This document shows positions 41,132 to 55,141 of a DNA stretch of 64,000 bases, piece after piece; position 1 is the first letter of the stretch; every line of letters begins with the position of its first letter. A model generated the notes under the pieces. The model did not search any database and was not told the origin of the DNA. It worked only from the letters and a program-made list of their open reading frames with translations. This DNA is from an uncultured virus (IMG/VR IMGVR_UViG_3300005326_000004). Taxonomy: Duplodnaviria; Heunggongvirae; Uroviricota; Caudoviricetes. The stretch lies in the IMG/VR virus record IMGVR_UViG_3300005326_000004; one strand, given 5' to 3'. Both the position numbers and the translations under genes were made by a program.

Positions 41132-41274
41132 CCAGCGGGGTAGTGAACCAACCAGAAGGGGGTATCGGATGCCGTTCTACCGTGATTCTTATGCCCAAAA
41201 TTCGATTATCGCCTATTAACCCCTATTCCGATGCCCCCTTACCAAAAACGTTGAAAAAATGGGGAATTCTCATA

Positions 41275-42270: not shown

Positions 42271-42271
42271 T

Positions 42272-42835
42272 ATGGCGAATATATGGAATGATTATCAAGA
42301 TGCTAAAAGGCACTTGGTATGTCTATTACAATACATCGGGGAAGACCCGTTGAGGGAAGGATTGATAGATACTCCTGAACGGATACTCCGATCATGGAAG
42401 GAATTGTTTTCCGGGTATCAAGCCAACCCGGATGATATATTAACGTGTTTTGAAGACGGTGCTTGTAATGAAATGATTGCCATTCGTGGTATTGAGTTCT
42501 TCTCAACGTGTGAACATCATTTCCTTCCGTTCTTTGGAACCGTTGATATTGGGTATATTCCGAATGGTCGAGTTATCGGATTGTCCAAACCCGCCCGATT
42601 GGTGGAAATATTTTCGAGACGGTTACAAATTCAAGAACGGTTGACAACGCAGATTGCTGATGCTCTTGTTGAGTATTTGCAACCAAAGGGAGTCATGGTT
42701 GTAGTGAAAGCGAAACACTTTTGTATGACTTGCCGTGGTGTAAAACAGCCCAACAGCACTGCCGTGACCAGTGCAATACGGGGAGTGTTCCAGGACCTGG
42801 ATGCCCGTACCGAATTTATGAGGTTGACACAATGA
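42272..42835 (+). CDS. folE: GTP cyclohydrolase I
   Basis: REGL.DTP.R, CEHH, GLSK, RRLQIQE and HFCM..RG motifs. Confidence 0.95.
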   Translation: MANIWNDYQDAKRHLVCLLQYIGEDPLREGLIDTPERILRSWKELFSGYQANPDDILTCFEDGACNEMIAIRGIEFFSTCEHHFLPFFGTVDIGYIPNGRVIGLSKPARLVEIFSRRLQIQERLTTQIADALVEYLQPKGVMVVVKAKHFCMTCRGVKQPNSTAVTSAIRGVFQDLDARTEFMRLTQ

Positions 42836-43551
42836 GTAAAGCAATGGTTGTTTTTTCAGGTGGTCAAGATTCCACTACGTGCCTCGCATTAGCGCGGGAA
42901 GGAGTGAAAGATGGTGAGTACGAGGGTGTAATTGCCATTTCATTCATGTACGAGCAAAAGCATGCAACAGCCGAGTTGAATGCTGCTCGGCAAATTGTAC
43001 GGGAATGGGATATTCCACACAAACTTGTATATTTGAATATCCCATCAGTATCCGCGCTCCTTACCAGAAATGGGAGGTACGTTGCTGATGTTAATGGACC
43101 ACACCCGCAGCATCCCGATCTCCCGGCCTCGTTCGTTCCTGATCGGAATGCATATTTTTTGCTTATTGCTCACATGAATGCACAAGTGTATGGATGTGAT
43201 ACCATAATGGCTGGAATGAACCAAACGGATTACAGTGGTTATCCGGATTGCCGGGAGGAATTTCTCGTTCCATACATGAATGCTCTCAACATTGGGAGTG
43301 GAACCAACATAAAAGCGAAATTCCCATTGTTGCACAAATCGAAAGCAGAAATATGGAAAATGGCTTTTGACTTGGGAGTGTACCGTACCATCGTGTATGA
43401 AACCCATACGTGCTACAATGGGGAAACCACATCACTTCACGCTTGGGGCTTTGGTTGTGGTGAATGTCCCGCATGTGTGATCAGGCGGGAATCATGGGAA
43501 CAATTCATGAAAGACATAGGAGGAGATATCAATGCCAAGATCCGAGGGTAA
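42832..43551 (+). CDS. queC: 7-cyano-7-deazaguanine synthase
   Basis: FSGGQDS, VP.RN, GYPDCR, TCY and GCGECPAC motifs; start at 42832. Confidence 0.95.
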   Translation: MSKAMVVFSGGQDSTTCLALAREGVKDGEYEGVIAISFMYEQKHATAELNAARQIVREWDIPHKLVYLNIPSVSALLTRNGRYVADVNGPHPQHPDLPASFVPDRNAYFLLIAHMNAQVYGCDTIMAGMNQTDYSGYPDCREEFLVPYMNALNIGSGTNIKAKFPLLHKSKAEIWKMAFDLGVYRTIVYETHTCYNGETTSLHAWGFGCGECPACVIRRESWEQFMKDIGGDINAKIRG

Positions 43552-43930
43552 ACGATTCAGACGGAAAAGCCCGTCTCACATCAAAGTGAATTTTTTGGAG
43601 ACGATTCCGTTTGATTGTGTTACGCAAAAGATCGTAATCGAAACGAAGGAGTTCTCTGCTGTATGCCCGTTCTCCGGTCTTCCGGATATTGCCAAAGTGG
43701 TTATTGTATATTACCCAGTTGGCAAAAGGATCATTGAATTGAAATCGTTGAAGTACTACTTCATGTCGTTTCGGGACGTAGGAGTGTACCAGGAACAAGC
43801 CACCGCAATTATCTTTGAAGATTTGAGCAGAGTATTGGGTATTTCCGAGGAAGGCCTCCAGGTCATAACCACGTATAATACCCGTGGTGGAATGGACGTT
43901 GTTTGCCAAATGGGATGTAATATTTTATGA
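43532..43930 (+). CDS. queF: preQ0 reductase (type I QueF)
   Basis: EFSAVCPFSGLPD, the QueF motif ELKSLKYY and C-terminal RGG. Confidence 0.88.
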   Translation: MPRSEGKRFRRKSPSHIKVNFLETIPFDCVTQKIVIETKEFSAVCPFSGLPDIAKVVIVYYPVGKRIIELKSLKYYFMSFRDVGVYQEQATAIIFEDLSRVLGISEEGLQVITTYNTRGGMDVVCQMGCNIL

Positions 43931-44697
43931 AGTACTTTTTCTCTTCACCGTCTTCCAGCTCCCTCCCGGTAATGAGGGAGCTGGGAGTTAATAATTATCT
44001 GTTCAGTTTCATGGTAGGCGGGAAAACATGGTATAAAGTTGTGCAACCAACGGAAACCGTATTGATGGATTCCGGAGCGTTTTCCGTATGGAACAGTGGG
44101 AAAACGATTGACATTGTGCAATACAAGAATTTCCTGAAAACGTTACCCGATCATTTTTTGAAGGTATCGTTGGATGTTATACCCAAAACCGGGAGTACCC
44201 CCAAAGAAATTGAGCATTGTTGTGAACAAGGAATTGAGAATTACAAGTTCCTGTGTGATGGAGTGAAAAACGTTATGCCCGTATATCATTACGGGGAACA
44301 TGAACGGTTTCTCAAAACGTATATGGAATATACGGATTACATTGGAATCAGTCCCGCAAATGACACATCCGAAAAATGCAAACGTCAATTCTTTTCCCAA
44401 GTATTTTCCATATTGGGGAGTAAAATACGTACCCATGCTTTTGGCTATTCATCTTTTTCTGGATTGGTTTTATATCCCTTCACCTCGGTTGATAGCATTA
44501 CTTACAACCGCTGGCAAAAACCAAGGGGAAAGAGAGGATGTATGTTTCGTGAGGATGATTATACCATCAAAAATATCCGAATCAATTCAACGTCATTGAA
44601 CTATTTTTTATATGAACGAATTCGGGTATTCTTGGAATACGAAAAGTTCATAACCGAATTATGGGAAGGTCGGGGTATCTCATGGAGCACAACGTAA
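43927..44697 (+). CDS. dpdA: DpdA-like DNA-guanine transglycosylase (TGT fold)
   Basis: MDSGAFS, LDVIP, PVYH, HAFG and SVDS motifs; adjacent to the que genes. Confidence 0.78.
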   Translation: MKYFFSSPSSSSLPVMRELGVNNYLFSFMVGGKTWYKVVQPTETVLMDSGAFSVWNSGKTIDIVQYKNFLKTLPDHFLKVSLDVIPKTGSTPKEIEHCCEQGIENYKFLCDGVKNVMPVYHYGEHERFLKTYMEYTDYIGISPANDTSEKCKRQFFSQVFSILGSKIRTHAFGYSSFSGLVLYPFTSVDSITYNRWQKPRGKRGCMFREDDYTIKNIRINSTSLNYFLYERIRVFLEYEKFITELWEGRGISWSTT

Positions 44698-45158
44698 TAC
44701 CAATTGACCAATTATATACCCCTGAATGGTATTGTAAGCAAGACGTGGAATCAGCCGTTCGTTTCAAATTGACGAATTCAATAAAACGTTATGGATACGG
44801 AGTTATCATTGTAAATGTTAGTTTTAATGGTTGTTATGATATAATTGATGGTAACACCCGTGTTGACATTTTGAAAGAAATGGGGTACAAAGAAGTCCAT
44901 TGTGAAATGCATAAACTTTCTGAATGGGAAGCCATCATATTTTCCTACAACCTCAACCGACATTGGAGTGAGGAGCACATAATTAAATTTTCACGGATAT
45001 TGGTTGATAGGGTACTTCCTTATATCAGCCCCGTGGAAATGTCAAACTTCGTGCCCGAAAGTGTGGGGCAGATAAACAGTTTGATGAATTTGTGTACGTT
45101 TGAATGGGAGAAGCACTTGAAAACCGATAACAATTTATTTGATTGGATGGATGAATGA
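44682..45158 (+). CDS. ParB/Srx-like domain protein
   Basis: L.NSIKRYG...IIV...YDIIDGNTRV motif. Confidence 0.75.
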   Translation: MEHNVIPIDQLYTPEWYCKQDVESAVRFKLTNSIKRYGYGVIIVNVSFNGCYDIIDGNTRVDILKEMGYKEVHCEMHKLSEWEAIIFSYNLNRHWSEEHIIKFSRILVDRVLPYISPVEMSNFVPESVGQINSLMNLCTFEWEKHLKTDNNLFDWMDE

Positions 45159-45673
45159 TCATAAATATGTTATTCCATGAAGATGCTATCCTGAAACGCA
45201 TCAATGATACTGCACTGTTTATTCGGGAGCGTTACCGTGTTACCGGGGGGAACAAAGAGATCGTTTTGGTTATACTGGCAAATGGGGGTTTACGTTTCGG
45301 AAGAAAATTGATCAAATTGTTGGAGTACTACAACGTACCGTTCATTTCCGAAATTGTACGAGCAAACTCATATGAAGGAACCGAACGGAAAGATGTACAC
45401 ATTCGGAAACGTAAACTTGATGTGACGGGTAAACTCGTTTTCGTGATTGATGATATTATTGATTCTGGTGAAACAATGCAATCCGTAACAACGTGGCTTG
45501 GTTCATACGCTCCACATCGGTTATATGTGATCACGTTGCTTACCCGTAAGCCTGGTACAGCGGACTTTGAGGGTTTTGATATTAGCGAGGAAAACCGTTT
45601 TGTGATCGGTTTCGGTATGGATTACAATGGTAATTTCCGTGGTGTAAACGACATTTACACATTGGTTTTATGA
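45155..45673 (+). CDS. hpt: Hypoxanthine/guanine phosphoribosyltransferase-like protein
   Basis: SY loop, VFVIDDIIDSGETM PRPP-binding motif and FVIGFGMDY motif. Confidence 0.88.
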   Translation: MIINMLFHEDAILKRINDTALFIRERYRVTGGNKEIVLVILANGGLRFGRKLIKLLEYYNVPFISEIVRANSYEGTERKDVHIRKRKLDVTGKLVFVIDDIIDSGETMQSVTTWLGSYAPHRLYVITLLTRKPGTADFEGFDISEENRFVIGFGMDYNGNFRGVNDIYTLVL

Positions 45674-47259
45674 TCAAAGAAATTAAACGAATCAATTACA
45701 AATCATTACCACGGGAGGAGTTTGAGTCGTGGCTCGATGGTTACATTACCTTCGAGCCATCGTTACTCACTCACCAGTTGGCTTCTGTGTGCTTTGCATT
45801 GGGGGAGGGGCTGACTCGGGTAATGTTTACAAACGATATTGGTACATGCAAAACATATACTTCTTTGGCGTTGTCCATGTGCTGGAAACCCAAAGGGCGA
45901 ATATTGGTTGTATGCCCGAATACCGTTGTATACACCACATGGGAAAAGCAAGTAAAGAAGTATACCAATTACGACTTTGAGGTGTTGACGGGTACGAAGT
46001 TGGAACGTGAAAAAACCCTTTTCACAACCAACAAAGATATGTACATTATCAATTACGAAGGATTACGGGTACTGTTTTGGGATACAATCGAAAACAACAA
46101 AGGTACCAAGAAAGGTGTTGTGAATTTAGCAAGAATAAAACAAGCAGGTTTCGAGCAAATTATATTCGATGAAATGCACCACCTGAAAGACGAAACCACA
46201 CAGCAAACGAAAATAGCCCGTGAGTTGTCCAAACGCGCTCGGTACGTGATCGGATTGACTGGTACTCCATTGGGTAAAAGTGTTTCCGATTTGTTTTCAC
46301 AATATTTGGTTCTGGACAATGGTGCTACATTGGGGGATAACCGTTTCTTATTTGAACGGGAGTACTTTTATAAACCGAGCATAAAAGTTCCTTACAAAAT
46401 GGAACCAAAACGGATATGTAGTATCTGTGGTGAACTGTATGATCACAAATTGAAACATTTGGAATTTCATAGAATATCCTTACCTGAATACCGTAAAAAG
46501 TTCCCGGTGGAAAAGACGGCTACCGATTTAATTTTAGATCGTGTGTCGTATTGTACATTACGGTACAGTAAGGAAGAATGTTTGGATTTACCAGACCAGA
46601 TATATCAGGTGCGTACGGTTGAACCATCCGTTGAGCAAACGCAAGTTACTCAAGAAGTCGTTTTAGGAATTCACGTCAACTCTCTTACCGAAAGCAACGT
46701 TGAGTACCATACGCAAAAATTGGTACAAATCACCGGGGGTTTCTTACTGGATAAGGAAGGTAGTTGTGAAGTATACAAAACAAATCCGAAGTTGCAGGAA
46801 TTGGGAGAAACCCTTTCACAAATATCTGGTAAGTGTATCATATATCATTATTACGTCAAAGAATCCGAATTGATCAGTGAGTACCTGAAAGATATGGGGT
46901 ACTCGTTTGTTGTGGTAAATGGTAACGTAAGTAAAGCCGAACAGAAAAAGCAAATTGATTCATTTATCAACGGGAATGTACAAGTACTTCTCGCAAATCC
47001 AAATAGTGGAGGTGAAGGGATTGATGGTTTACAAGTATCATCCACCATCATATATTACAGCAGAAGTTATATGGGTAGTATATTGCGTCAACAATCGGAA
47101 GGGCGTATACACCGGCAGGGCCAAAAAAACAACTGCGTGTATATAGACTTGGTTATGCATAACACAATAGACGAAATACTTTTTGATAATATGTCCAATT
47201 GTTCAAAACAATTTAAGAGTGTACTTACGTATTTGCAAAAAAAGTATAAAAAAGGTTGA
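45670..47259 (+). CDS. SNF2-family helicase/ATPase
   Basis: DIGTCKT, INYE, DEMH, LTGTP and QSEGRIHRQGQ motifs. Confidence 0.88.
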   Translation: MIKEIKRINYKSLPREEFESWLDGYITFEPSLLTHQLASVCFALGEGLTRVMFTNDIGTCKTYTSLALSMCWKPKGRILVVCPNTVVYTTWEKQVKKYTNYDFEVLTGTKLEREKTLFTTNKDMYIINYEGLRVLFWDTIENNKGTKKGVVNLARIKQAGFEQIIFDEMHHLKDETTQQTKIARELSKRARYVIGLTGTPLGKSVSDLFSQYLVLDNGATLGDNRFLFEREYFYKPSIKVPYKMEPKRICSICGELYDHKLKHLEFHRISLPEYRKKFPVEKTATDLILDRVSYCTLRYSKEECLDLPDQIYQVRTVEPSVEQTQVTQEVVLGIHVNSLTESNVEYHTQKLVQITGGFLLDKEGSCEVYKTNPKLQELGETLSQISGKCIIYHYYVKESELISEYLKDMGYSFVVVNGNVSKAEQKKQIDSFINGNVQVLLANPNSGGEGIDGLQVSSTIIYYSRSYMGSILRQQSEGRIHRQGQKNNCVYIDLVMHNTIDEILFDNMSNCSKQFKSVLTYLQKKYKKG

Positions 47260-47284
47260 CATATATACTATCATATGGTATATT
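47256..47284 (+). promoter_or_regulatory. Sigma70-type promoter
   Basis: TTGACA-N17-TATATT with an extended -10 TG. Confidence 0.65.
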
Positions 47285-47327
47285 ATAATTGTGGGGGGAG
47301 GTGATACCGAACCCCATAAAAATAAGA

Positions 47328-47372
47328 TGAAACCATATAACATACCGGACGTATAATATTATATGGGGGGGG
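47328..47372 (+). promoter_or_regulatory. ECF-sigma-like promoter
   Basis: TGAAAC-N16-CGTATAATATTATATGGGG. Confidence 0.55.
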
Positions 47373-47403
47373 AAGGGAAGCCACCAATTGAAAGGGAAGG
47401 ACA

Positions 47404-47670
47404 ATGAATATAAACACCACTGATACCACCCCAACGCCAAAGGATTATGATAATGCGTTGGATATTTTCTCACTGGAAAAACGGTATGACAAACATACCT
47501 ACACCAAGGAAGAAAATATCGTGTTGTTCAATGCTATCCTGGCGTTCGTTATCCGTTACCGGGCTCACATCGAATATTACGGATTGGAAGAGTTCCTTAC
47601 CAAGTTTGCTGAAACGTACGTTAAGGACGGATTGAATGCCGCTCTTGACAATGTTATCATGAAAGGGTAA
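47404..47670 (+). CDS. Early hypothetical protein (related to 47675..48160)
   Basis: TTP..D..NA..IF and FV.RY...I...GL..F...F...Y shared with the next ORF. Confidence 0.65.
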   Translation: MNINTTDTTPTPKDYDNALDIFSLEKRYDKHTYTKEENIVLFNAILAFVIRYRAHIEYYGLEEFLTKFAETYVKDGLNAALDNVIMKG

Positions 47671-47674
47671 GACA

Positions 47675-48160
47675 ATGAAACGTTACATTGAAAAAACCAC
47701 ACCCGAGCAGGACGAAAAAAACGCCATACGTATTTTCCGTATTTACAAAATGGCCAGGAACGGTAATATTGTACTTGATAAAGTGTTGAGAGAAATCTCC
47801 CTGGATATTCGGGGGGCTTGCACTCCCGGCCAGAAGAAGCGTTTTTACACGCAAATTTCTGCTATGAAGGATGCCGGTCTGTTCGCTCCGGATGAAACGG
47901 ATGAAGAGAACATCTTTTACATCTCCGCTGCTACTGAATTTGTCCTTCGTTACACAGATATCATTGATCAGTGCGGTCTGAATTATTTTATTGAGGACTT
48001 TTCCAGGTGGTACATTGAGCGGTCTAACAATGAATCCCATGCGGAGTATACCAATGAATCGTTTGGACCGGGAAACGGGCTCGATCCTGATGGAACCAAA
48101 CCCGTGTATGACGCTTGGGCTGCCGGGGATACCAAACACAACCGTACTGACGAGGCGTAA
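47675..48160 (+). CDS. Early hypothetical protein
   Basis: RBS present; shares segments with 47404..47670 and 48497..48742; the stop codon lies inside hammerhead 1. Confidence 0.7.
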   Translation: MKRYIEKTTPEQDEKNAIRIFRIYKMARNGNIVLDKVLREISLDIRGACTPGQKKRFYTQISAMKDAGLFAPDETDEENIFYISAATEFVLRYTDIIDQCGLNYFIEDFSRWYIERSNNESHAEYTNESFGPGNGLDPDGTKPVYDAWAAGDTKHNRTDEA

Positions 48161-48199
48161 AGCGCCGAAACGGGAGAATACTCTCTCCCGTATACGGTT
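48140..48199 (+). ncRNA. Type I hammerhead ribozyme 1
   Basis: AACCGTA-CTGACGA-GGCG(TAAAG)CGCC-GAAA-CGGGAGA(ATACTC)TCTCCCG-TA-TACGGTT. Full core; predicted cleavage after GUA at 48192. Confidence 0.92.
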
Positions 48200-48228
48200 A
48201 GCAGTACCAGCAACAAAGGAGGTTTATT

Positions 48229-48420
48229 ATGTACGAAGTCACTTCCACAAGAAACGGTTATGTTCTGTGCTATGTCAATGTCCGGAGCATTGCGGATGCC
48301 AGACATATGGCAGAATGCCTTGAAAAGGAAGACCCGTCCATAAAGGTGATTATTTACCATGTTCATTACGTTTTGACCAAGGGTTCTTTTTGCAAGATTA
48401 TCCGTGAAATTGAAAGATAA
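48229..48420 (+). CDS. Small early hypothetical protein
   Basis: Strong RBS AAGGAGG. Confidence 0.65.
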   Translation: MYEVTSTRNGYVLCYVNVRSIADARHMAECLEKEDPSIKVIIYHVHYVLTKGSFCKIIREIER

Positions 48421-48463
48421 TGGAACCACCCCGTAGGTCCAAACGTGTAATATATATGGGGGG
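48421..48463 (+). promoter_or_regulatory. ECF-sigma-like promoter
   Basis: TGGAAC-N17-CGTGTAATATATATGGGGG; the 22-mer AAACGTGTAATATATATGGGGG is identical to 40311-40332. Confidence 0.55.
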
Positions 48464-48496
48464 ATGGATAACGTACTCAACAAAAGGAGCAATACA

Positions 48497-48742
48497 ATGG
48501 AAAAGAATAACAACTACAATCCGTCCAAGCACACGATGGAGACCGCGCTTCACATCTACAAAATGGTGAAATATGATAACATTGCGATGGAAGACGCAGT
48601 GAAGGAAATCGCTCTCACAATCGAAGAATGCCGGGAACACGAAAATCAGCATGACATTGCCGAAGTCATGGAAGTTCTGATGGAGAAGAAGAAGGAAATG
48701 GAATTGGAGGAAATGCTCAAAAATGTTTCGATTACGGCGTAG
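48497..48742 (+). CDS. Small early hypothetical protein
   Basis: RBS AAGGAG; IYKM....NI......EI.L.I shared with 47675..48160. Confidence 0.7.
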   Translation: MEKNNNYNPSKHTMETALHIYKMVKYDNIAMEDAVKEIALTIEECREHENQHDIAEVMEVLMEKKKEMELEEMLKNVSITA

Positions 48743-48806
48743 TTATCCTGACGAGTCGTGTAGCGACGAAACAGAGTGAACCCAATCCGTTCACTCTGTC
48801 GATAAC
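48742..48806 (+). ncRNA. Type I hammerhead ribozyme 2
   Basis: GTTATC-CTGACGA-GTCG(TGTAG)CGAC-GAAA-CAGAGTGAAC(CCAATCC)GTTCACTCTG-TC-GATAAC. Predicted cleavage after GUC at 48800. Confidence 0.93.
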
Positions 48807-48838
48807 AACCAAAAACCCATAACGAAAAGGAGCAACCA

Positions 48839-49012
48839 ATGGATGAATTAATTCACTACTTTGGTTGCGGTATTTTTGAAGGTTTTGGAGTGGTATTATT
48901 CGTGTATATCAAAAATAAGTTTTTCAGCAAAGTGGAACAAAAGGAATCCGAATTGAAGGAAGCGTTTCCGAACTTCCATTTTCCGATTGAAGAAGGTGAG
49001 TTGTATGATTAG
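48839..49012 (+). CDS. Small membrane protein (57 aa)
   Basis: RBS AAGGAG; MDELIHYFGCGIFEGFGVVLFVYIK...; below the ORF-track cutoff. Confidence 0.55.
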   Translation: MDELIHYFGCGIFEGFGVVLFVYIKNKFFSKVEQKESELKEAFPNFHFPIEEGELYD

Positions 49013-49392
49013 CATTATTGGTGTTGCAATCATTTGGGGAGCCGTTTACTACGTAATATGGAGGATGAACTAATGGAAACATTATTGACTCCTTTGGTCC
49101 AGGGACTGGTATTCGGATGTGGCACAGCGGTCACTTTCGGAATCGTTATGCTCGCTGAATGGTTGATCAAGGAAACGTTCAAGCACAGGGGAGGGGGTAA
49201 TCCCCTCCTCCATTGGGGGATACAATGTTTTTACGCAATGCAGAAGAAGTACTCCATATATTGGAGCAAAACGCAATAATTCGTAACCGGGGAGAAGTGG
49301 TTGACATGCACATTGTACGGCAATTGTTCAGCCAATTTATGGTGGAGGATGTCGAAGATTTGGAAGATTCCCCTACATTCAAGGAATAAGAC

Positions 49393-49683
49393 ATGGCTCG
49401 ATTGCCGTATTACAGCGTACACAAAATCAAGAAATTCCATGAAGAACACGGAGGTACGTTTTTTGATAAAAAACGTTTCGAGTTCAACCGATGGCATATG
49501 ATTGACTTTGGGTACAAACGTTACAAGGGGGAAACATACCTATACAAAAAAGTTGGTAAACTGGTTGTATGGCGTTTGGATAAAGTCACCGGGGAATTAA
49601 TCGAAACCTCGTTTAGTGACTTTGATCATTCCGTTGTTTTTTGCAGACCAGCAACACGGTGGAATTCACGGAGGAATAAGTAA
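49393..49683 (+). CDS. Hypothetical protein
   Basis: RBS AAGGA; coupled to the next ORF. Confidence 0.6.
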   Translation: MARLPYYSVHKIKKFHEEHGGTFFDKKRFEFNRWHMIDFGYKRYKGETYLYKKVGKLVVWRLDKVTGELIETSFSDFDHSVVFCRPATRWNSRRNK

Positions 49684-49988
49684 TGGCTATAAAATCAACA
49701 GAAATTGAATGTGTTGATGTATACGCTTATGGCCTCGCTGCCGAATATCGGTTTACCATGCGAGTCCCAAAAATGCCCGATTCCAAACAGCAGATCCTGC
49801 TGGCAATCAAGGACGCACAAACGTTAAACGAAGGAGATCTCTACCCACACCTGATCAACAATCCCATCCGGTATATTTCGTTACCGGGAGGCAAAAGTTA
49901 TTTTGCCGTGAACAAAACAAAATGTGTTGGCTATTCATTCAGGGAAGTTATTGAAATCAGTAAAAAGGAGATGAAATATGAAGTTTGA
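49683..49988 (+). CDS. Hypothetical protein
   Basis: RBS GGAGG; TAATG stop/start overlap. Confidence 0.6.
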   Translation: MAIKSTEIECVDVYAYGLAAEYRFTMRVPKMPDSKQQILLAIKDAQTLNEGDLYPHLINNPIRYISLPGGKSYFAVNKTKCVGYSFREVIEISKKEMKYEV

Positions 49989-50307
49989 AGTGGCAAAACG
50001 GGAGAGACCTTCCCATTACCGGAAAAACATGGACCCCACTGTCTGGTCTTTTTTGGAGGCCGTGGATGCATTGGAAAACCAAGATGGATTGTGTATTCTC
50101 GTCCCTTGGGAACCGAGTGATACAGGATTAACACTGAAAGCCAAGAAGCAAAGAATCCTTTCGTACCTACATCGGTACCTTTCAAACAAAAAATTCTCCG
50201 TTCTCAAAATGGATGAAGACAATACGTTGGGGATTTTCCGCAGGTCTGATACCCCAGTGGTGAAGGGTAAAATACACAACGTCAATAAAATGGAAAAAAC
50301 ATGTTGA
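49978..50307 (+). CDS. Hypothetical protein
   Basis: RBS AAGGAG. Confidence 0.6.
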   Translation: MKFEVAKRERPSHYRKNMDPTVWSFLEAVDALENQDGLCILVPWEPSDTGLTLKAKKQRILSYLHRYLSNKKFSVLKMDEDNTLGIFRRSDTPVVKGKIHNVNKMEKTC

Positions 50308-50332
50308 CATAACATATAATATGTATTATATT
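50304..50332 (+). promoter_or_regulatory. Sigma70-type promoter
   Basis: TTGACA-N17-TATATT, followed by a GC-rich leader hairpin (about 50343-50395). Confidence 0.6.
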
Positions 50333-50420
50333 ATATGTCTTGGTACAGGGGTGGGGCTTTTCACGGTAACGGTTCATCCACCCCCATCCCTGTACATAAA
50401 TACAATTATGGAGGCACACA

Positions 50421-50603
50421 ATGAAATTAGGTGAATTGGTTGACTTGTTGACCAGTTTGCTGGAAAACGGCTCAAGCAATCCGGATGATACCGTAATCGT
50501 GGAAGCGTACCCACACAGTTACGATATTGAAGATATTCAAATCGGGTACGAAAGTGGGGAGCATTTTGTTTCCATCGTTGCAAAGGAAGGGCGAGCATGG
50601 TAG
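50421..50603 (+). CDS. Small acidic hypothetical protein
   Basis: RBS GGAGG. Confidence 0.6.
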   Translation: MKLGELVDLLTSLLENGSSNPDDTVIVEAYPHSYDIEDIQIGYESGEHFVSIVAKEGRAW

Positions 50604-51373
50604 GTACAGATCGTGAATTGGTCAAAAACAATTTCCGCACAACGGAAGATGCTGTTATGAACGTACCGCAGCCGGAGTTCACTAACACATGGAGGCCGTA
50701 CGCACACAACATTATCATTGAAGGGCTCACCCGAGTGACCAGGGAAATGGGGCTTACGGTTGTTCACAAACAGTATTCCCTGAATGAGAAAGGTACGCAA
50801 ATGTATGGGGCCTGGGGAATTGATACCGATATGAAAAAAGGGTCCGAAGGTCACCACATATATCAAGCCATCATATTTCGTAATTCGATTGACAAGGCGT
50901 TTTCTTTCGGCATTGCGGGAGGAACGGACACCTGGGTATGTGAGAACCTGGCTGTGTGGGGAAATTTCATTGAAATCCGGAAACACTCGAGTTCTTTGGA
51001 CAGGACGGAATTGGTTTCGGCAATGTTCAAAGGAATCAAATCCCTCAAGCCCGAATTGGATAAAGTCATTGAATGGCATGATCTCATGAGGGAAATTCGG
51101 CTGGATACCAAGACGGTTGAAGCCCTGGCATATCAAGCCATCATGCAAGGGGTAATCAATCTGAAAAAGTTACCCGTGTTCCATCGGTTGCTTTTCGGTG
51201 AGGATCACCCGTACGATAACACTACGTTGTTTGGATTCCACGGGGCATGTACCGAGGTTTTGAGGGATGGTCAAATCAATTCAACGATGATCGAACGCCA
51301 GGAGAAGTTGAATACGTTGATCAAGATGGAATGTCCCGCACTGCATGAGGTGTATGGTCCTAACGACATATAA
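50597..51373 (+). CDS. DUF932-like protein
   Basis: RNSID.....IAGG...WVCEN and H motifs. Confidence 0.7.
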   Translation: MVGTDRELVKNNFRTTEDAVMNVPQPEFTNTWRPYAHNIIIEGLTRVTREMGLTVVHKQYSLNEKGTQMYGAWGIDTDMKKGSEGHHIYQAIIFRNSIDKAFSFGIAGGTDTWVCENLAVWGNFIEIRKHSSSLDRTELVSAMFKGIKSLKPELDKVIEWHDLMREIRLDTKTVEALAYQAIMQGVINLKKLPVFHRLLFGEDHPYDNTTLFGFHGACTEVLRDGQINSTMIERQEKLNTLIKMECPALHEVYGPNDI

Positions 51374-51412
51374 AGGGGTTTTATGCAAGGCACAACGTGT
51401 AAGGGTCCACGC

Positions 51413-51546
51413 GCACCCCCGATGGTAAACACATAAGTAATCAAGAAGTACCATACCTAAACCCAGGTCAAAAACCATAGGTAATAAAAACATAAGGGTA
51501 CAGCAACGTAAATGTACATACGAGCACCCCCGATGGTAAACACATA
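51413..51546. repeat. 23-bp perfect direct repeat, 111 bp apart
   Basis: GCACCCCCGATGGTAAACACATA at 51413-51435 and 51524-51546. Confidence 0.85.
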
Positions 51547-51624
51547 TAGTATATGAAGTCAAAATATGGTGAAAGGGGAGGCATGGGAAGCACTCCCCTT
51601 TTAAAACCAATTCGGAGCCAGCAT

Positions 51625-52602
51625 ATGAATGTCAAAAAAATACTCAATGCATTTGGAATCATGTACGAGGAAACGCATCCAGCGGTTTCCAAAAAGTGCG
51701 TTGGCATTGACTGCCCGTACTGCCATGATACCGGTAAGCATATGGGTATTTTTCTTGACACGGGGAAAGCGTTTTGTTGGAAATGTCAAAAAACCCGGTT
51801 CATATCCCAAGTACTTTACAAATTGAAAGGGGTAACACAGGAACAGTTTGAAGCGGTTTCCGGTATACGGGTACGAAATGATGATCAACCAAAGAACAAT
51901 TTGGACCGGATATTCAAAAAAACGAATACCAATTATGTACAGGTGGAGGCAGATAACTCTGAAATCATAAAACACTTTTTATCATTTGAATCCATCAGCA
52001 GTAAACCGTATTTATCAGCAATCCATCATGTAATGTTGGATTATGTTACATCCCGTTTCACTTGGGATGAATTGAAGTTATACGGTGCTGGGTATGCTCT
52101 CAGCGGGCCTATGATGAATCGGCTTGTAATCCCGTACCCAGCACCGTTTATTGGACCACCAATAGGTTTTGTGGGGAGGGATTTTACCGGGATAGCCCAA
52201 CGGAAATATTTTGTTACACCAGGGCTCTCACTACATTCACACGTATACCCAAATAGTGCATTTGGGGATAGACGAACGGATGTACTGGTTGTGGTAGAAG
52301 GCATTTTCGATTCATGGGCTATTACGGATTATTTGGCAGTGGCTTTATGCGGAAAAGCCATTTCAATCAAGCAGATTTCAAAAGTTATATCAATGTACCC
52401 AACAATGGATATGACCCTTGTAATCTGTTTGGATGGAGATACGTCAATCCGTGATCGGGGAAATGTACAACGTGAGTTAGGGGTATTTTTCAAAAATTCG
52501 GTTATGGTGAACTTACCGGAGTTATTGGACCCGTCAAGTATACCAACCAATGAATTATCGTATTACATTGACAAAGGAGTTGAGTCACATGGGAAAGATT
52601 AA
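51625..52602 (+). CDS. DNA primase (zinc finger plus TOPRIM)
   Basis: CPYC...CWKC, RLVIP, GR, VVEGIFD and CLDGD motifs; start at the ATG at 51625. Confidence 0.88.
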   Translation: MNVKKILNAFGIMYEETHPAVSKKCVGIDCPYCHDTGKHMGIFLDTGKAFCWKCQKTRFISQVLYKLKGVTQEQFEAVSGIRVRNDDQPKNNLDRIFKKTNTNYVQVEADNSEIIKHFLSFESISSKPYLSAIHHVMLDYVTSRFTWDELKLYGAGYALSGPMMNRLVIPYPAPFIGPPIGFVGRDFTGIAQRKYFVTPGLSLHSHVYPNSAFGDRRTDVLVVVEGIFDSWAITDYLAVALCGKAISIKQISKVISMYPTMDMTLVICLDGDTSIRDRGNVQRELGVFFKNSVMVNLPELLDPSSIPTNELSYYIDKGVESHGKD

Positions 52603-52774
52603 AACGGATTTGAAGGAATTGAGTCCGAACGAATACAAAAAGAAGTGGTTGACCATCAGAGCATATTCGGAAAAATACGGATGGAACAAAGACACAATCT
52701 ACAAATGGGTAAAGAAAGGGAAAATTGAAGCGCGGAAATTCGGAAAAATGATCCTCGTTCTCGATGCCAAATGA
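52589..52774 (+). CDS. Excisionase/MerR-like HTH protein
   Basis: WLTIRAYSEKYG...TIYKWVKKGKIEARKFG. Confidence 0.75.
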   Translation: MGKIKTDLKELSPNEYKKKWLTIRAYSEKYGWNKDTIYKWVKKGKIEARKFGKMILVLDAK

Positions 52775-52795
52775 TAATCTTCTTGGGGGTTAATT

Positions 52796-53302
52796 GTGGA
52801 TACGGTAATTCATAAAACAATCGTTAAATTCTGTTATGAATTTAAAAAAAGGAACCCTCATATATTGGATGAAGTGGATGATCTGATCTGTGAAGCATAC
52901 GTGCTACTTCCAAAAATTGAAAAAATGTACGACAAGGAACAACACGTTTTGTTTACCACATTCCTTTGGAATGGGTTATACAGATACTTTTTGGATATGG
53001 TTGAATCAGACCGTAGTGGGGTATTCACATCATTGGATGAATTAACGGAGTCCGAAGAATACCCCATTGAATTTCCATCCCAACGGATAACCTCATTTCC
53101 ACCCGCCTTCCTGAACAGTTTATCCAACAATGCCCGTTTGTATGTTGAAACCATCTTGGACTTTCCGGAAGAGTTGGAAACGTTCATGAGTCGTAAAAAC
53201 AAAAAGTACCCGTTCAAGTACCAGGTGGGTCAATATTTGGGATTCAATAAAACGGAGGTTCACCGTATTCAACAGGAAGTTTTGGAGAAGTACATTTATT
53301 AA
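52796..53302 (+). CDS. Sigma factor-like protein
   Basis: Region 2-like DDLICEAY...YD.....FTTFLW....YFLD and a C-terminal HTH-like segment. Confidence 0.55.
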   Translation: MDTVIHKTIVKFCYEFKKRNPHILDEVDDLICEAYVLLPKIEKMYDKEQHVLFTTFLWNGLYRYFLDMVESDRSGVFTSLDELTESEEYPIEFPSQRITSFPPAFLNSLSNNARLYVETILDFPEELETFMSRKNKKYPFKYQVGQYLGFNKTEVHRIQQEVLEKYIY

Positions 53303-53317
53303 AAAAGGAGTAAATCC

Positions 53318-53728
53318 ATGTGTCTTAATATACGACTTGGTAAACGGATAATGAAAAAGGATACCACGATTTATAGAGTAGTAGAAGTACGTGATGGTTT
53401 ATATTACTCTTGCCTTTTCGATAAGGATAGTGGTTTTCATCACGGAGTAAACCGTGCAGTAGTCTGTCCTGTTGTGTATATGACAAAAAAAGGTAGACGA
53501 ATGTATCCATCCGGTTATCATTGTTTCACAAAACGTAGTGATGCAAAAATATATAAAGAAGAATTTTTGGAAGCGCTTTACAAGTGTCTTGACTTACCGT
53601 TACCATACTATAAAATTGTTGTGTTCACTATTCCACAAGGAGTAAAAACATATGCGGGATATACTAAATTAGAAAACACAGATAGAAAAATGTATACGTT
53701 GGTTTCCCCCATACTTGTTTTGAAATGA
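53318..53728 (+). CDS. Tandem paralog 1, unknown function
   Basis: MCL.IRLG...YPSGYHCF...YTLVSP. Confidence 0.75.
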   Translation: MCLNIRLGKRIMKKDTTIYRVVEVRDGLYYSCLFDKDSGFHHGVNRAVVCPVVYMTKKGRRMYPSGYHCFTKRSDAKIYKEEFLEALYKCLDLPLPYYKIVVFTIPQGVKTYAGYTKLENTDRKMYTLVSPILVLK

Positions 53729-53743
53729 ATGAAAGGGTAAACT

Positions 53744-54178
53744 ATGTGTCTTGATATACGCCTTGGTAAACGGATAATGAAAAAGGCTACCACGGTTTAC
53801 AAAGTGGTACGGGTTATTTACCTACGCGGTCAGGAGATTTATACACCATGCTTTTTCCCGTTGTCCCCTGTTTTTAAAAAAGGTGTTAATCATGCGGATG
53901 TGACTGCAATTTTGTATTCCACATATAGGGGCTACCATACATATCCATCGGGTTATCATTGTTTCCAGAAAGTGGGGGATGCCGAAGCATATATGAAGGA
54001 GTACTTGAATGGTGAGCTTGCACATGATGAATCCGTCAAAATTGTTGAATTCACCATCCCGCGAGGAGTGGAAGTATATGCGGGCTACACCTCGGTATTA
54101 CCATCCACACATTTGAGGAATAGTCCAGTAGTTGGCAAACTGTATACGTTGGTTTCCCCAATTCTCATTTTGGAATAA
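53744..54178 (+). CDS. Tandem paralog 2, unknown function
   Basis: Same motifs. Confidence 0.75.
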   Translation: MCLDIRLGKRIMKKATTVYKVVRVIYLRGQEIYTPCFFPLSPVFKKGVNHADVTAILYSTYRGYHTYPSGYHCFQKVGDAEAYMKEYLNGELAHDESVKIVEFTIPRGVEVYAGYTSVLPSTHLRNSPVVGKLYTLVSPILILE

Positions 54179-54195
54179 ACGAAAGGAATACACTT

Positions 54196-54618
54196 ATGTG
54201 TTTAGATATCCGCCTGGGAGACAAAGTTCTAATGAGGGACACGGTTGTTTACAAAGTGGTAAGGTATTACAAACAAGGTGCAATGTCGTTTTTTGAACCG
54301 TGTTTCTTTGGAAGATACAGACATTTCAAAAAAGGTGTAAACTACGCAAGTGTACAACCAATTGAATATTATACATCGAAAGGGTTACGTACGTACCCGT
54401 CCGGGTATCATTGCTTTACGAGACGGGAAGCTGCAAAAATCTACATGGAAGAATTTTTTCAGGAGGAAGGTGCAACAATTTTGGAGTTTGTTATCCCAAA
54501 AGGTACCAAAGTATCCACCGGGTATACGGAAGTGTTTGATATAGTTGAACTTCGCAAATTGTATACGTTGGTTTCCCCGGTAATTGTGTGGAATAGAGAA
54601 GAAAGGTATGGTATATAA
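54196..54618 (+). CDS. Tandem paralog 3, unknown function
   Basis: Same motifs. Confidence 0.75.
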   Translation: MCLDIRLGDKVLMRDTVVYKVVRYYKQGAMSFFEPCFFGRYRHFKKGVNYASVQPIEYYTSKGLRTYPSGYHCFTRREAAKIYMEEFFQEEGATILEFVIPKGTKVSTGYTEVFDIVELRKLYTLVSPVIVWNREERYGI

Positions 54619-54833
54619 TGATTCAGGATAGAATTAATGCATTATTGACGTGGTTAAAAACCCGATTTATCGAGGAAGAGCCCGCACCAAAACCATCTGA
54701 ACCAATAAAGAAAAGTTGTATCAGTTGTAAATACGGATTACATGATATGGATAAACCACCATGTAAGGAATGTCAGGCTGTACAGCAAACAGACGGGTCT
54801 TTCATATTCACCAACTGGGAAAGGACATTGTAA
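54618..54833 (+). CDS. Small Cys-containing protein
   Basis: CISCKY...PCKEC. Confidence 0.55.
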   Translation: MIQDRINALLTWLKTRFIEEEPAPKPSEPIKKSCISCKYGLHDMDKPPCKECQAVQQTDGSFIFTNWERTL

Positions 54834-54836
54834 CAT

Positions 54837-55139: not shown

Positions 55140-55141
55140 TT

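What the first reader, a model, noticed from the sequence alone, without database searches (positions are those of the whole stretch)
48140..48806. Two hammerhead ribozymes sit on stop codons and bracket a 608-nt two-gene segment
Seen: two complete type I hammerheads on the same (coding) strand, each with CUGACGA, a 4-bp stem II, GAAA, stem III, an NUH site and a closing stem I. Their stems differ in sequence yet all pair, which argues against chance. In the first, the TAA of ORF 47675..48160 is in loop II. The second starts on the TAG of the related ORF 48497..48742. Each cut site is followed within about 40 nt by an A/C-rich leader, a strong RBS and a new ORF. Established: hammerhead cleavage leaves a 2',3'-cyclic phosphate and a 5'-OH, which RtcB-type ligases can join. 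Inference: the phage processes its early transcript without proteins, either setting defined mRNA ends or releasing 48193-48800 (608 nt, two ORFs) as a unit that could circularise.
Basis: partly seen in the sequence, partly recalled or inferred. Interest (0 to 1): 0.88.

Follow-up and report, generated by a model that had tools for sequence, protein, structure and literature searches.

The report
Two hammerhead ribozymes between phage genes
Two small self-cutting RNA motifs (hammerhead ribozymes) sit between short genes of a groundwater phage and most likely chop its long messenger RNA into separate pieces, an arrangement already described in other phages whose purpose is still unproven.

Summary
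Window 48140-48199 and 48742-48806 (+ strand) are complete type I hammerheads, with cut sites at 48192/48193 and 48800/48801. A descriptor scan finds 2, against 0.003 expected per window. A covariance model built only from other phages' type I hammerheads scores them 50.9 and 47.0 bits; the next best hit is 9.3. Rfam misses them at gathering score, but it also misses 8 of 8 equivalent ribozymes in other phage contigs.

The layout is stop codon, ribozyme, 36-38 nt A/C-rich leader, SD, ATG. This layout is the rule for a large class of compact phage type I hammerheads. Relatives of this phage (SNF2 helicase 25-47% identical) carry type II or III hammerheads or twister ribozymes in the same small-ORF block, sometimes in pairs.

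Clustered hammerheads flanking one or a few prophage genes, with mRNA processing as the proposed role, were published in 2011, and that study did not detect circular products. Here the two stems I are not interchangeable, no end-to-end helix is predicted, Pfam finds no RNA ligase among the 74 ORFs scanned, and a promoter-like repeat lies inside the 608-nt segment.

Verdict: a real new member of a known kind. Intercistronic mRNA processing is likely and circularisation unlikely. No RNA data exist.

The parts
47256..47284 (+). Sigma-70-like promoter candidate TTGACA-17-TATATT (11 of 12 consensus positions, TG before the -10), just after the SNF2 helicase stop. It may start the small-ORF transcription unit.
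   Evidence: The exact pattern occurs twice in the window (here and at 50304-50332) against 0.07 expected. This is a consensus match only; function is not shown.
47349..47368 (+). Copy, with a 1-nt insertion, of the promoter-like repeat ACGTnTAATATATATGGGG, upstream of ORF 47404-47670.
   Evidence: alignment A2.
47404..47670 (+). ORF of 88 aa with no family match. It resembles the C-terminal half of ORF161.
   Evidence: BLASTP 36% identity over 47 residues, E 4e-7; no family.
47675..48160 (+). ORF161, an orphan protein. Its last 7 codons (48140-48160) encode stem I 5' strand, the CUGACGA core and half of stem II of HH1. Its TAA lies in loop II.
   Evidence: Only itself is found among 5.8e9 clustered proteins and among 1.84e9 representatives by full HMMER.
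48140..48199 (+). HH1, a type I hammerhead ribozyme. The predicted cut is between 48192 and 48193.
   Evidence: 50.9 bits, E 2e-13.
48200..48228 (+). A/C-rich leader with SD AAAGGAGG (48215-48222). After the cut, the 5' UTR of ORF63 would be 36 nt long.
48229..48420 (+). ORF63, no family match.
48443..48461 (+). Promoter-like repeat ACGTGTAATATATATGGGG inside the bracketed segment, 36 nt before the ATG of ORF81. It is identical to the copy at 40313-40331 before the first + strand gene.
   Evidence: 2 exact copies against 0.05 expected.
48497..48742 (+). ORF81, no family match. A short N-terminal stretch resembles ORF161. The G of its TAG is the first base of HH2 stem I.
48742..48806 (+). HH2, a type I hammerhead ribozyme. 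The predicted cut is between 48800 and 48801.
   Evidence: 47.0 bits, E 4e-12.
48807..48838 (+). A/C-rich leader with SD AAAAGGAG (48825-48832). After the cut, the 5' UTR of ORF57 would be 38 nt long.
48839..49012 (+). ORF57, a small protein with a hydrophobic stretch. It is the first cistron of the third predicted RNA piece.
50304..50332 (+). Second sigma-70-like promoter candidate, with the same hexamers. It marks the likely end of the roughly 3-kb small-ORF block that holds both ribozymes.

Best explanation
Both elements are genuine type I hammerhead self-cleaving ribozymes, transcribed as part of a polycistronic + strand RNA. That RNA covers the block of small orphan ORFs (about 47.3-50.3 kb) downstream of the phage's SNF2 helicase gene.

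Each ribozyme folds once the RNA downstream of the preceding stop codon has been made. It then cuts between the upstream cistron and the next ribosome-binding site.

- The upstream piece keeps its stop codon. It ends in the stem II and stem III hairpins with a 2',3'-cyclic phosphate.
- The downstream piece starts with a 5'-OH, 6-7 nt of former stem I, and a short unstructured A/C-rich leader with a strong SD.
- The short stem I (6-7 bp) should let the products separate, which would make the cut effectively irreversible.

The net effect is to cut the operon RNA into three pieces: roughly 0.9 kb, 608 nt and roughly 1.5 kb. The decay and translation of each piece are then uncoupled from its neighbours.

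What is shown and what is inferred:
- Shown here: the motifs, their fold, their placement, and the recurrence of the same module in other phages.
- Taken from published work on other examples: that such clustered prophage hammerheads cleave in vitro and in E. coli.
- Inferred and untested: cleavage of these two, the transcript boundaries, and the direction of the effect on expression. A 5'-OH end can protect or expose an mRNA depending on the host's RNases, and the host is unknown.
For: 1. Every defining sequence feature is present at both sites, and the count is far above chance. The hammerhead fold is the MFE, with z of -4.3 and -4.7.

2. Model R1, built from 32 other phage type I hammerheads, hits only these two sites in 64 kb: 50.9 and 47.0 bits, next best 9.3.

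Of 117 distinct core matches, 80 complete a type I fold, 32 a type III fold, 1 both and 4 neither. The pattern does not constrain stems I or III.

4. The placement is the class rule. Among 64 evaluable de-replicated type I examples, the upstream stop overlaps the ribozyme in 38 and lies 0-5 nt before it in 14. It lies farther away in 12. An SD plus start follows within 200 nt of the cut in 39 of 49 evaluable examples (median 31 nt).

5. Relatives defined by the helicase carry self-cleaving ribozymes in the same block, on the coding strand.
 - All 9 strong descriptor hits in 1.66 Mb lie downstream of the helicase on its strand.
 - Eight of those 9 are supported by Rfam in the matching topology: 3 at gathering score and 5 at E of 0.01 or lower.
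 - Twister-P5 ribozymes occur in L140 and L144 in the same stop-ribozyme-leader-SD-ATG layout.
 - Pairs bracket 0.8-1.2 kb in L177, L253, L140 and L144.

6. + strand coding is supported by strong SDs, tight gene packing, paralogy among ORF88, ORF161 and ORF81 and purine skew.

7. Published: clustered hammerheads flank single genes or short gene blocks in prophages. Three tandem arrangements cleaved in vitro, and one also in E. coli (PMC3088659, passages).
Against: - There is no RNA evidence at all. The only run listed as holding this DNA is a DNA run.
- Rfam does not reach gathering score for either site.
- The ribozymes are not conserved at orthologous positions, because the flanking ORFs are orphans.
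- Only 7 of 90 evaluable distinct relatives have a hammerhead downstream of the helicase, and 4 of 18 at 40% identity or more. The element is therefore dispensable for the lineage.
- The conserved flank and loop signature of the compact class is only partly met. That signature is A before stem I, AA after it, and loop II U-N-A-N-N. HH1 has a seventh pair in place of the A/A. HH2 has U instead of A at loop position 3. Fast cleavage at cellular Mg2+ is therefore not assured.
- A promoter-like repeat inside the segment means that part of the ORF81 mRNA may never contain HH1.
- The direction of any effect on expression cannot be inferred.
Confidence: 0.75

Rival explanations
1. Translation-gated cleavage. 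Because the stop codon of the upstream ORF lies inside or at the edge of the ribozyme, ribosomes finishing ORF161 or ORF81 keep the 5' half of the hammerhead unfolded. Scission would then occur only when upstream translation is sparse or over. The ribozyme would act as a sensor linking upstream translation to the fate of downstream cistrons. This is a refinement of the main reading, not a contradiction of it.
For: - HH1 shares 21 nt with ORF161 coding sequence, with the stop in loop II. HH2 begins on the last base of the stop.
- In the compact class, 38 of 64 evaluable examples have the stop inside the ribozyme and 14 more within 5 nt of it.
- 'Stop codon' occurs 0 times in PMC3088659 according to the listing.
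- I saw no paper describing this feature in the listings.
Against: - Tight packing of phage genes explains the same pattern without any sensing.
- 11 of 64 examples have the stop more than 20 nt upstream.
- In relatives, type II and III hammerheads and twisters simply follow the stop.
- No kinetic or expression data exist.
Confidence: 0.15
2. Circular RNA. Double cleavage releases 48193-48800, and a host RtcB-type ligase (or the ribozyme's reverse reaction) joins the 5'-OH to the 2',3'-cyclic phosphate. The product would be a 608-nt circular two-gene mRNA.
For: - The end chemistry of hammerhead products fits RtcB (established knowledge).
- Tandem hammerheads flanking 600-1000 nt give circles in plant retrozymes (PMC5680766 and PMC4918200, abstracts seen in the listings).
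- Both ORFs carry their own SD, so they would be translatable on a circle.
Against: - Stem I of HH1 and stem I of HH2 differ. The ends therefore cannot rebuild a hammerhead across the junction.
- The centroid fold has no end-to-end helix, and the energy z-score is -1.0.
- No ligase domain was found in 74 window ORFs.
- A promoter-like repeat lies inside the segment.
- Relatives pair unlike ribozymes, a hammerhead with a twister.
- The length is not a multiple of 3, and both ORFs have stops.
- Perreault et al. did not detect circular or spliced products from their clusters.
Confidence: 0.06
3. Hitch-hiking or decaying motifs. The hammerheads came in with mobile small-gene cassettes and are neutral passengers or relics. 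They would have little or no effect on this phage's gene expression.
For: - The distribution among relatives is sporadic: 7 of 90 evaluable.
- Ribozyme type and class change from relative to relative.
- The neighbouring genes are orphans.
- Both window copies depart from the class signature at one point each.
Against: - Both cores are canonical, and all three stems pair without a mismatch.
- The same precise placement between a stop and the next SD recurs with four different ribozyme architectures. That argues for selection on the cut itself.
- There is no compositional break around the segment.
Confidence: 0.1

Closest known systems
Clustered hammerhead ribozymes of prophages (Perreault et al. 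2011, PMC3088659; passages read)
   Same: Several hammerheads lie close together on the coding strand and flank a single gene or a short block of genes whose identity is not constant. The canonical core is present. Processing of long phage transcripts into gene-length mRNAs is the proposed role, and circular or spliced products were considered.
   Different: This phage and its flanked genes are new; the flanked genes are orphans. Both ribozymes here are the compact type I form that abuts or overlaps the upstream stop codon. That feature is not mentioned in the paper ('stop codon' 0 occurrences, listing). The published cases have cleavage data, and this one has none.
Twister and other self-cleaving ribozymes that share gene neighbourhoods with bacterial hammerheads (review PMC6765202, passages read)
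   Same: The review states that unrelated ribozyme classes occupy the same kinds of loci, so the cut rather than the motif is what matters. The relatives found here show this directly: types I, II and III hammerheads and twister-P5 all occur in the block after the helicase.
   Different: No twister or other Rfam ribozyme was found in this window itself.
Retrozymes and viroid-like circular RNAs with tandem hammerheads (PMC4918200, PMC5680766; abstracts only, listings)
   Same: Two hammerheads on one strand bracket a segment of a few hundred nucleotides. The product ends are 5'-OH and 2',3'-cyclic phosphate.
   Different: In those elements the flanking ribozymes are repeats of one sequence, so the ends rebuild a ribozyme and are ligated. 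Here the two stems I differ, the segment is protein-coding phage DNA, and nothing brings the ends together.
Type I hammerheads in intergenic or 5' UTRs of fungal RNA viruses (PMC13725137; passages read)
   Same: A type I hammerhead fills a short intergenic UTR and cuts a few nucleotides to tens of nucleotides before the next ORF's start. It is proposed to serve expression of the downstream ORF.
   Different: Those are eukaryotic RNA viruses with cap-independent initiation. This is a DNA phage with SD-led initiation, and the sequences are unrelated apart from the core.
glmS ribozyme (as summarised in PMC6765202)
   Same: Self-cleavage inside an mRNA creates a 5'-OH end that decides the fate of the downstream message.
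   Different: glmS needs a metabolite cofactor and sits in a 5' UTR, and its cleavage lowers expression through RNase attack on the 5'-OH product. The hammerheads here have no known ligand and are intercistronic.

Membership tests
Hammerhead ribozyme | Conserved core: C3 U4 G5 A6 N7 G8 A9, G12 A13 A14, the A15.1-U16.1 pair, and H17 (not G) before the cut. | tested here: met
   Both sites read CUGACGA ... GAAA ... U then A (HH1) or C (HH2). The criteria are those listed in PMC3088659 methods.
Hammerhead ribozyme | Three helices around the core, with no mispair next to the core (1.1-2.1, 10.1-11.1, 15.1-16.1). | tested here: met
   HH1 has stems of 7, 4-5 and 8 bp. HH2 has stems of 6, 4-5 and 11 bp. 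All are uninterrupted, and the fold is the MFE.
Hammerhead ribozyme | Type I topology: stem I open, stems II and III closed by loops. | tested here: met
Hammerhead ribozyme | Self-cleavage by internal transesterification at H17. | not testable with these tools
   No RNA run was listed for this DNA. An in vitro assay is needed.
Hammerhead ribozyme | Score at or above the gathering threshold of an Rfam hammerhead model. | tested here: not met
   There are 0 hits at gathering score. The best is 21.8 bits against 48.5 for the type III model, mis-registered, and for HH1 only. The same library misses 8 of 8 compact type I hammerheads in L002, L014, L019, L046 and L093. This reflects the models' coverage rather than the sites.
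Hammerhead ribozyme | [quoted passage not shown] | tested here: inconclusive
   No internal loop or pseudoknot could be established. The context fold extends HH1 stem I by 10 bp across a 16-nt/1-nt internal loop, but no homologue exists to test it.
Compact phage type I hammerhead class (defined here from viral contigs) | Core plus stem II of form G-N-C-G, a 5-nt loop, then C-G-N-C, and a high score to model R1. | tested here: met
   Scores are 50.9 and 47.0 bits. The class was retrieved with a pattern taken from these two sites, so the core match is by construction. Stems I and III and the UH site are independent of that pattern.
Compact phage type I hammerhead class (defined here from viral contigs) | Exactly 6-bp stem I flanked by an unpaired A on the 5' side and AA on the 3' side, with loop II U-N-A-N-N. 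| tested here: inconclusive
   Class frequencies, in 77 rows not de-replicated: 5' A 76 of 77; 3' A 72 and A 61 of 77; loop U 74 and A 75 of 77. HH2 has the A and the AA, but its loop is UGUAG. HH1 has loop UAAAG, but it has a seventh pair A48140-U48199 and UA after stem I.
Compact phage type I hammerhead class (defined here from viral contigs) | Placement: the upstream stop inside or within 5 nt of the ribozyme, and SD plus start about 25-45 nt after the cut. | tested here: met
   Relative to the C of CUGA, the HH1 stop is at +11 and the HH2 stop at -8. The starts lie 36 and 38 nt after the cuts. In the class, 52 of 64 and 30 of 49 examples fit.
Retrozyme or viroid-like circular RNA | Flanking ribozymes are copies of one sequence, so the excised RNA's ends rebuild a ribozyme or helix for ligation. 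| tested here: not met
   The stems I (UACGGUU against GUUAUC) and the stems III differ. No end-to-end helix is predicted.
Retrozyme or viroid-like circular RNA | A detectable circular RNA or back-junction. | not testable with these tools
   No RNA run was listed.

The most novel reading that the evidence does not exclude
The hammerheads are translation-sensing switches. Because the upstream stop codon is built into the ribozyme, terminating ribosomes hold it unfolded. The rate of translation of ORF161 or ORF81 would then set when the operon RNA is cut, and so set the fate of the next cistrons.

This would apply across the compact phage class, where 38 of 64 examples have the stop inside the ribozyme. 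It would give bacterial and phage hammerheads a first defined regulatory logic.

A less likely variant is that the 608-nt piece is ligated by a host RtcB into a circular two-gene mRNA.
Probability: 0.15. Interest if true: 0.65.

Novelty: new member of a known kind. Interest (0 to 1): 0.35.

Why it matters
The biological role of the hundreds of hammerheads and other self-cleaving ribozymes in phages is still described as largely elusive (review PMC6765202). This locus does not overturn that picture, but it is a clean, compact case for testing it. It offers two canonical ribozymes, three predicted RNA pieces, strong ribosome-binding sites, and candidate promoters on either side.

The surrounding analysis adds three testable generalisations:
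- The compact phage type I hammerhead almost always abuts or contains the upstream stop codon, and it leaves a roughly 30-nt A-rich leader.
- It has a conserved A / AA flank around a 6-bp stem I, which may be its tertiary contact.
- Within one phage lineage the same intercistronic slot is filled by type I, II or III hammerheads or by twister. That points to the cut, not the motif, as the selected feature.

The analysis also shows that Rfam at gathering score misses this class, so phage annotations based on it under-count these ribozymes.

Tried and rejected
- **Rfam at gathering score on the window:** 0 matches. E-value mode on 47900-49100 and 39000-57000 gave only a mis-registered 21.8-bit type III match for HH1.
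- **Gapped IUPAC pattern for a whole hammerhead:** I replaced it with my own descriptor script.
- **Whole genome:** none is held.
- **blastn of 45000-52000 against phage records:** no match.
- **Relatives through ORF161:**
  - None in viral contigs.
  - Only itself in the clustered protein search.
  - Only itself in the full HMMER search of representatives.
- **Single-sequence helicase query in viral contigs:** none. An alignment was needed.
- **Sequencing runs:** one DNA run, possibly the source sample, and no RNA holder listed. No reads were laid.
- **Model R1 on 160 helicase-linked loci:** only one weak hit, at L140 = L215, 27.2 bits.
- **L143 type III hit (4289-4337):** it rests on my descriptor alone, and Rfam did not list it at E of 0.5 or lower.
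- **Weak descriptor hits:** L219, L233, L261, L262 and window 39304-39440 (-) were treated as chance.
- **ESM Atlas for ORF161 and ORF63:** no hit at 0.9 or above and no family.
- **PHROGs and Pfam:** nothing for the ORFs between 47404 and 50603.
- **tRNA scan of the window:** none.
- **Composition profile 46-51 kb:** no break at the segment.
- **Pseudoknot or loop II partner for HH1 or HH2:** only short ad hoc complementarities by eye, and I did not pursue them.
Full report
**1. The observation**

The sequence contains two complete type I hammerheads on the + strand.

HH1 spans 48140-48199:
- Stem I is AACCGUA/UACGGUU (7 bp).
- The core CUGACGA lies at 48147-48153.
- Stem II is GGCG/CGCC, closed by UAAAG.
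- GAAA lies at 48167-48170.
- Stem III has 8 bp, counting A15.1-U16.1.
- U16.1 is 48191 and H17 is A48192.
- The cut falls between 48192 and 48193.

HH2 spans 48742-48806:
- Stem I is GUUAUC/GAUAAC (6 bp).
- The core is CUGACGA.
- Stem II is GUCG/CGAC, closed by UGUAG, followed by GAAA.
- Stem III has 11 bp.
- H17 is C48800.
- The cut falls between 48800 and 48801.

- The TAA of ORF 47675-48160 (48158-48160) lies in loop II of HH1.
- The G of the TAG of ORF 48497-48742 is the first base of HH2 stem I.
- The piece between the cuts is 608 nt. It holds ORF 48229-48420 (63 aa) and ORF 48497-48742 (81 aa).
- The leaders after the cuts are 36 and 38 nt, A/C-rich. They carry AAAGGAGG and AAAAGGAG, each 6 nt before the ATG.

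**2. More than chance**

- A descriptor script for type I hammerheads finds these two sites. With long inserts allowed, it also finds one loose hit on the - strand at 39304-39440, which I treat as chance.
- With compact limits it finds 2 observed against a mean of 0.0033 in 300 dinucleotide-preserving shuffles. Under strict stems, 0 of 300 shuffles give any hit.
- Each motif folds into the hammerhead secondary structure as its minimum-free-energy structure (z -4.28 and -4.71). It does so again inside 131- and 141-nt contexts.

Rfam is the main result on the other side.
- It gives 0 matches at gathering score in the window.
- In E-value mode it gives only a mis-registered 21.8-bit match of HH1 to the type III model.
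- I therefore tested whether Rfam sees this kind of hammerhead at all. It reports none of 8 equivalent type I ribozymes in five other phage loci at gathering score. The miss reflects the library's coverage.

**3. A large class of the same thing in other phages**

A pattern of the core and stem II shared by HH1 and HH2 matched 3 viral contigs.

The pattern says nothing about stems I or III. Of 117 distinct matches, 80 complete a type I hammerhead, 32 a type III, 1 both and 4 neither.

From 32 diverse type I examples I built alignment A1 and covariance model R1. None of the 32 comes from the window.
- In A1, 95% of cells pair, against 68.5% in shuffles. Eleven of 16 pairs change on both sides.
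- These sequences were chosen by a descriptor that demands pairing. The count therefore shows sequence variety in the stems, not independent proof of structure.
- With filters off, R1 hits the window only at 48141-48198 (50.9 bits, E 2e-13) and at 48742-48806 (47.0 bits, E 4e-12). The next best hit scores 9.3 bits.
- There are therefore exactly two of this class in the window. Rfam finds no other ribozyme class there.

**4. 'Sitting on stop codons' is the class rule**

The de-replicated examples come from 81 rows grouped into 68 clusters, of which 64 have an evaluable upstream ORF.

| Position of the upstream stop | Examples (of 64) |
|---|---|
| Overlaps the stem I 5' strand | 26 |
| Inside CUGANGA (its UGA) | 10 |
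| In stem or loop II | 2 |
| 0-5 nt upstream of the ribozyme | 14 |
| 6-20 nt upstream | 1 |
| More than 20 nt upstream | 11 |

- An SD-led start of an ORF of 40 aa or more follows within 200 nt of the cut in 39 of 49 evaluable cases. The median distance is 31 nt, and 30 cases lie within 45 nt.
- The 20 nt after stem I are 48% A, against 28% in the background.
- HH2 belongs to the commonest arrangement, with the stop at -8 from CUGA. HH1 belongs to the rarer loop II arrangement, at +11.

The class also shows a flank signature (77 rows with a 6-bp stem I, not de-replicated).
- The base before stem I is A in 76 of 77.
- The two bases after it are A in 72 and A in 61 of 77.
- Loop II is U (74 of 77), N, A (75 of 77), N, N.
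- Stem I is 6 bp in 63 of 68 clusters.
- I suspect this is the tertiary contact, but that is inference.
- HH2 has the flanks but reads UGUAG in the loop. HH1 has a fitting loop (UAAAG) but a seventh pair in place of the A/A. Each window copy departs from the signature at one point.

**5. Genomic setting**

The window is most of a tailed-phage genome. The protein search reports a longest contig of 66,411 bases for its proteins.

The - strand, 1-39.8 kb, carries these genes:
- portal, terminase, capsid and protease;
- a 2812-aa beta-helix protein;
- PolA, DnaB-like helicase, clamp loader, RecA and ThyX.

The + strand block, 40.4-55.7 kb, runs as follows:
- a 7-deazaguanine pathway: QueD, QueE, FolE, QueC, QueF, a DpdA-like transglycosylase, a ParB-like protein and a phosphoribosyltransferase;
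- an SNF2 helicase at 45670-47259;
- a run of small ORFs with no family at 47404-50603, which holds both ribozymes;
- a DUF932-like protein, a primase and an HTH protein.

ORF161 has no relative anywhere searched. ORF88, ORF161 and ORF81 share short similar stretches.

Candidate promoters:
- The sigma-70-like pattern TTGACA-17-TATATT occurs exactly twice, at 47256-47284 and 50304-50332. This is against 0.07 expected, and the two sites bracket the small-ORF block.
- A second repeated element, ACGTnTAATATATATGGGG, stands before the first + strand gene (40313-40331) and before ORF88 (47349-47368, with a 1-nt insertion).
- A further copy runs divergently on the - strand near 39795-39815.
- Another copy lies inside the 608-nt segment, before ORF81 (48443-48461).
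- All of these are consensus matches. None is shown to act.

**6. Relatives**

The helicase has relatives at 41-54% identity. An alignment of 24 of them (A3) retrieved 160 loci. These are 128 distinct loci after de-replication.

- R1 found one weak type I-like site, at L140 = L215, 11653-11705 (27.2 bits). It has a 4-bp stem I and a C·A mismatch in stem III, and it sits 2.1 kb after the helicase.
- A generic descriptor for all three topologies over 1.66 Mb found 9 strong hits: L143, L144 and L214 (type III); L169 and L188 (type II); L177 with two (type II); L253 with two (type II).
- All 9 lie on the helicase strand, 0.27-4.2 kb downstream of the helicase. Four weak hits elsewhere I treat as chance.
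- Each strong hit directly follows a stop codon and precedes an SD and ATG by 15-35 nt.
- Rfam supports 8 of the 9 in the matching topology: 3 at gathering score and 5 at E of 0.01 or lower. L143 rests on my descriptor alone.
- Rfam also reports twister-P5 ribozymes in L140 (10473-10526) and L144 (4558-4613). Both are on the + strand in the same stop-ribozyme-leader-SD-ATG layout.
- A further twister-P5 lies on the - strand of L136.
- Pairs of ribozymes bracket 0.8-1.2 kb with two to four small ORFs in L177, L253, L140 and L144.

The element is not universal. Seven of 90 evaluable distinct relatives have a hammerhead downstream of the helicase: 4 of 18 at 40% identity or more, 2 of 38 at 30-40%, and 1 of 34 below 30%. 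My descriptor demands perfect stems, so these are lower bounds.

**7. How it most likely works**

The only feature common to types I, II and III and to twister in this slot is a cut between a stop codon and the next ribosome-binding site. That cut leaves a 2',3'-cyclic phosphate and a 5'-OH. Which product keeps the ribozyme body differs by topology.

I therefore read the function as physical separation of cistrons, rather than a particular 3' hairpin or 5' structure.

For the type I form here:
- The upstream mRNA keeps its stop codon and gains two terminal hairpins.
- The downstream mRNA starts 36-38 nt before its ATG with an unstructured leader.
- The short stem I should let the products part.

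Whether the 5'-OH stabilises or exposes the downstream piece depends on the host's RNases. In the glmS case the 5'-OH product is degraded (PMC6765202). The host here is unknown, and the source is a groundwater metagenome.

**8. Comparison with what is known**

- Perreault et al. [quoted passage not shown] - They note that spliced or circular products are conceivable but were not detected.
  - Three tandem arrangements cleaved in vitro, and one also cleaved in E. coli.
- A 2019 review (PMC6765202) still calls the bacterial roles largely elusive.
- A 2026 paper (PMC13725137) says type I hammerheads are usually DNA-encoded motifs of bacteria, bacteriophages or metazoans.

The finding is therefore a new member of a known kind.

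I did not find the stop-codon overlap or the A / AA flank signature described in the listings of four literature searches or in the passages read. I did not open the supplementary alignments of PMC3088659, which may contain them.

**9. Circular RNA**

Nothing supports it here.
- The stems I differ, so the ends cannot rebuild a ribozyme.
- The centroid fold has no end-to-end helix, and the energy is ordinary.
- No ligase domain appears in the 74 ORFs scanned.
- A promoter-like repeat sits inside the segment.
- Relatives pair unlike ribozymes.

Host RtcB cannot be excluded, so I leave it at about 0.06.

Other phage contigs are better candidates for circles. They hold two hammerheads with the same stem I, 262-300 nt apart, around a single ORF of 64-75 aa (L046, L092, L093).

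**10. Verdict**

- Observation: confirmed.
- Interpretation: partly supported. Processing is likely and circularisation is unlikely.
- Novelty: new member of a known kind.
- Interest: 0.35. The locus is a clean test bed, and the class-level regularities are useful, but a specialist would not be surprised.

Noticed in passing
window 40313-40331 (+), 47349-47368 (+), 48443-48461 (+), about 39795-39815 (-): A repeated element, ACGTnTAATATATATGGGG(GG), stands 36-62 nt before the start codons of four genes. Two copies are divergent at the 39.8-40.4 kb strand switch. It looks like a phage promoter with a -10-like AT run and a G-run start. Two copies are identical 19-mers, against 0.05 expected.
   Followed up: partly
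window 47256-47284 and 50304-50332 (+); hairpin about 50345-50396: There are two sigma-70-like promoters, TTGACA-17-TATATT, and these are the only two in the window (0.07 expected). They bracket the 3-kb small-ORF block. The leader after the second holds a long G-run/C-run inverted repeat (GTACAGGGGTGGGG ... CCACCCCCATCCCTGTAC).
   Followed up: partly
window 41062-45673 (+): A full 7-deazaguanine pathway is present: QueD, QueE, GTP cyclohydrolase I, QueC, QueF, a DpdA-like transglycosylase (phrog_887), a ParB-like protein and a phosphoribosyltransferase. It lies next to an SNF2 helicase, as in phages that modify their DNA with deazaguanines.
   Followed up: no
L046 1919-2270; L092 280-593 (and 834-885); L093 295-623: Other phage contigs carry tandem type I hammerheads with the identical stem I (ACACAA/UUGUGU), 262-300 nt apart. 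Each pair encloses one ORF of 64-75 aa. In these cases the excised RNA's 5' end could pair with the ribozyme at its own 3' end, which is the precondition for ribozyme-templated circularisation that the window lacks.
   Followed up: partly
L021-L024 (one viral contig of 82,750 bases; contig positions about 77.3-82.2 kb): Seven distinct matches to the type I hammerhead model (30.9-67 bits) lie on one strand within about 4.9 kb near a contig end. This cluster is far denser than the one in the window.
   Followed up: partly
L140 10473-10526 and 11653-11705; L144 3775-3825 and 4558-4613: Two relatives of this phage pair a twister-P5 ribozyme with a hammerhead, 0.8-1.2 kb apart, in the small-ORF block after the helicase. 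Each ribozyme sits between a stop codon and the next SD.
   Followed up: partly
77 type I hammerheads of viral contigs: The compact class has an almost invariant unpaired A before a 6-bp stem I and AA after it, together with loop II U-N-A-N-N. This is a likely tertiary-contact signature, and current Rfam models at gathering score do not capture the class (0 of 8 found).
   Followed up: partly
window 2077-10515 (-): A single ORF of 2812 aa with right-handed beta-helix repeats (Pfam Beta_helix in 4 stretches) lies among the tail genes.
   Followed up: no
window 47657-48139 (-) and 47983-48513 (-): Long antisense ORFs of 160 and 176 aa overlap ORF161, HH1 and ORF63. They start with GTG or TTG and have low-complexity translations. 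I took them as non-coding shadows of the + strand genes.
   Followed up: no
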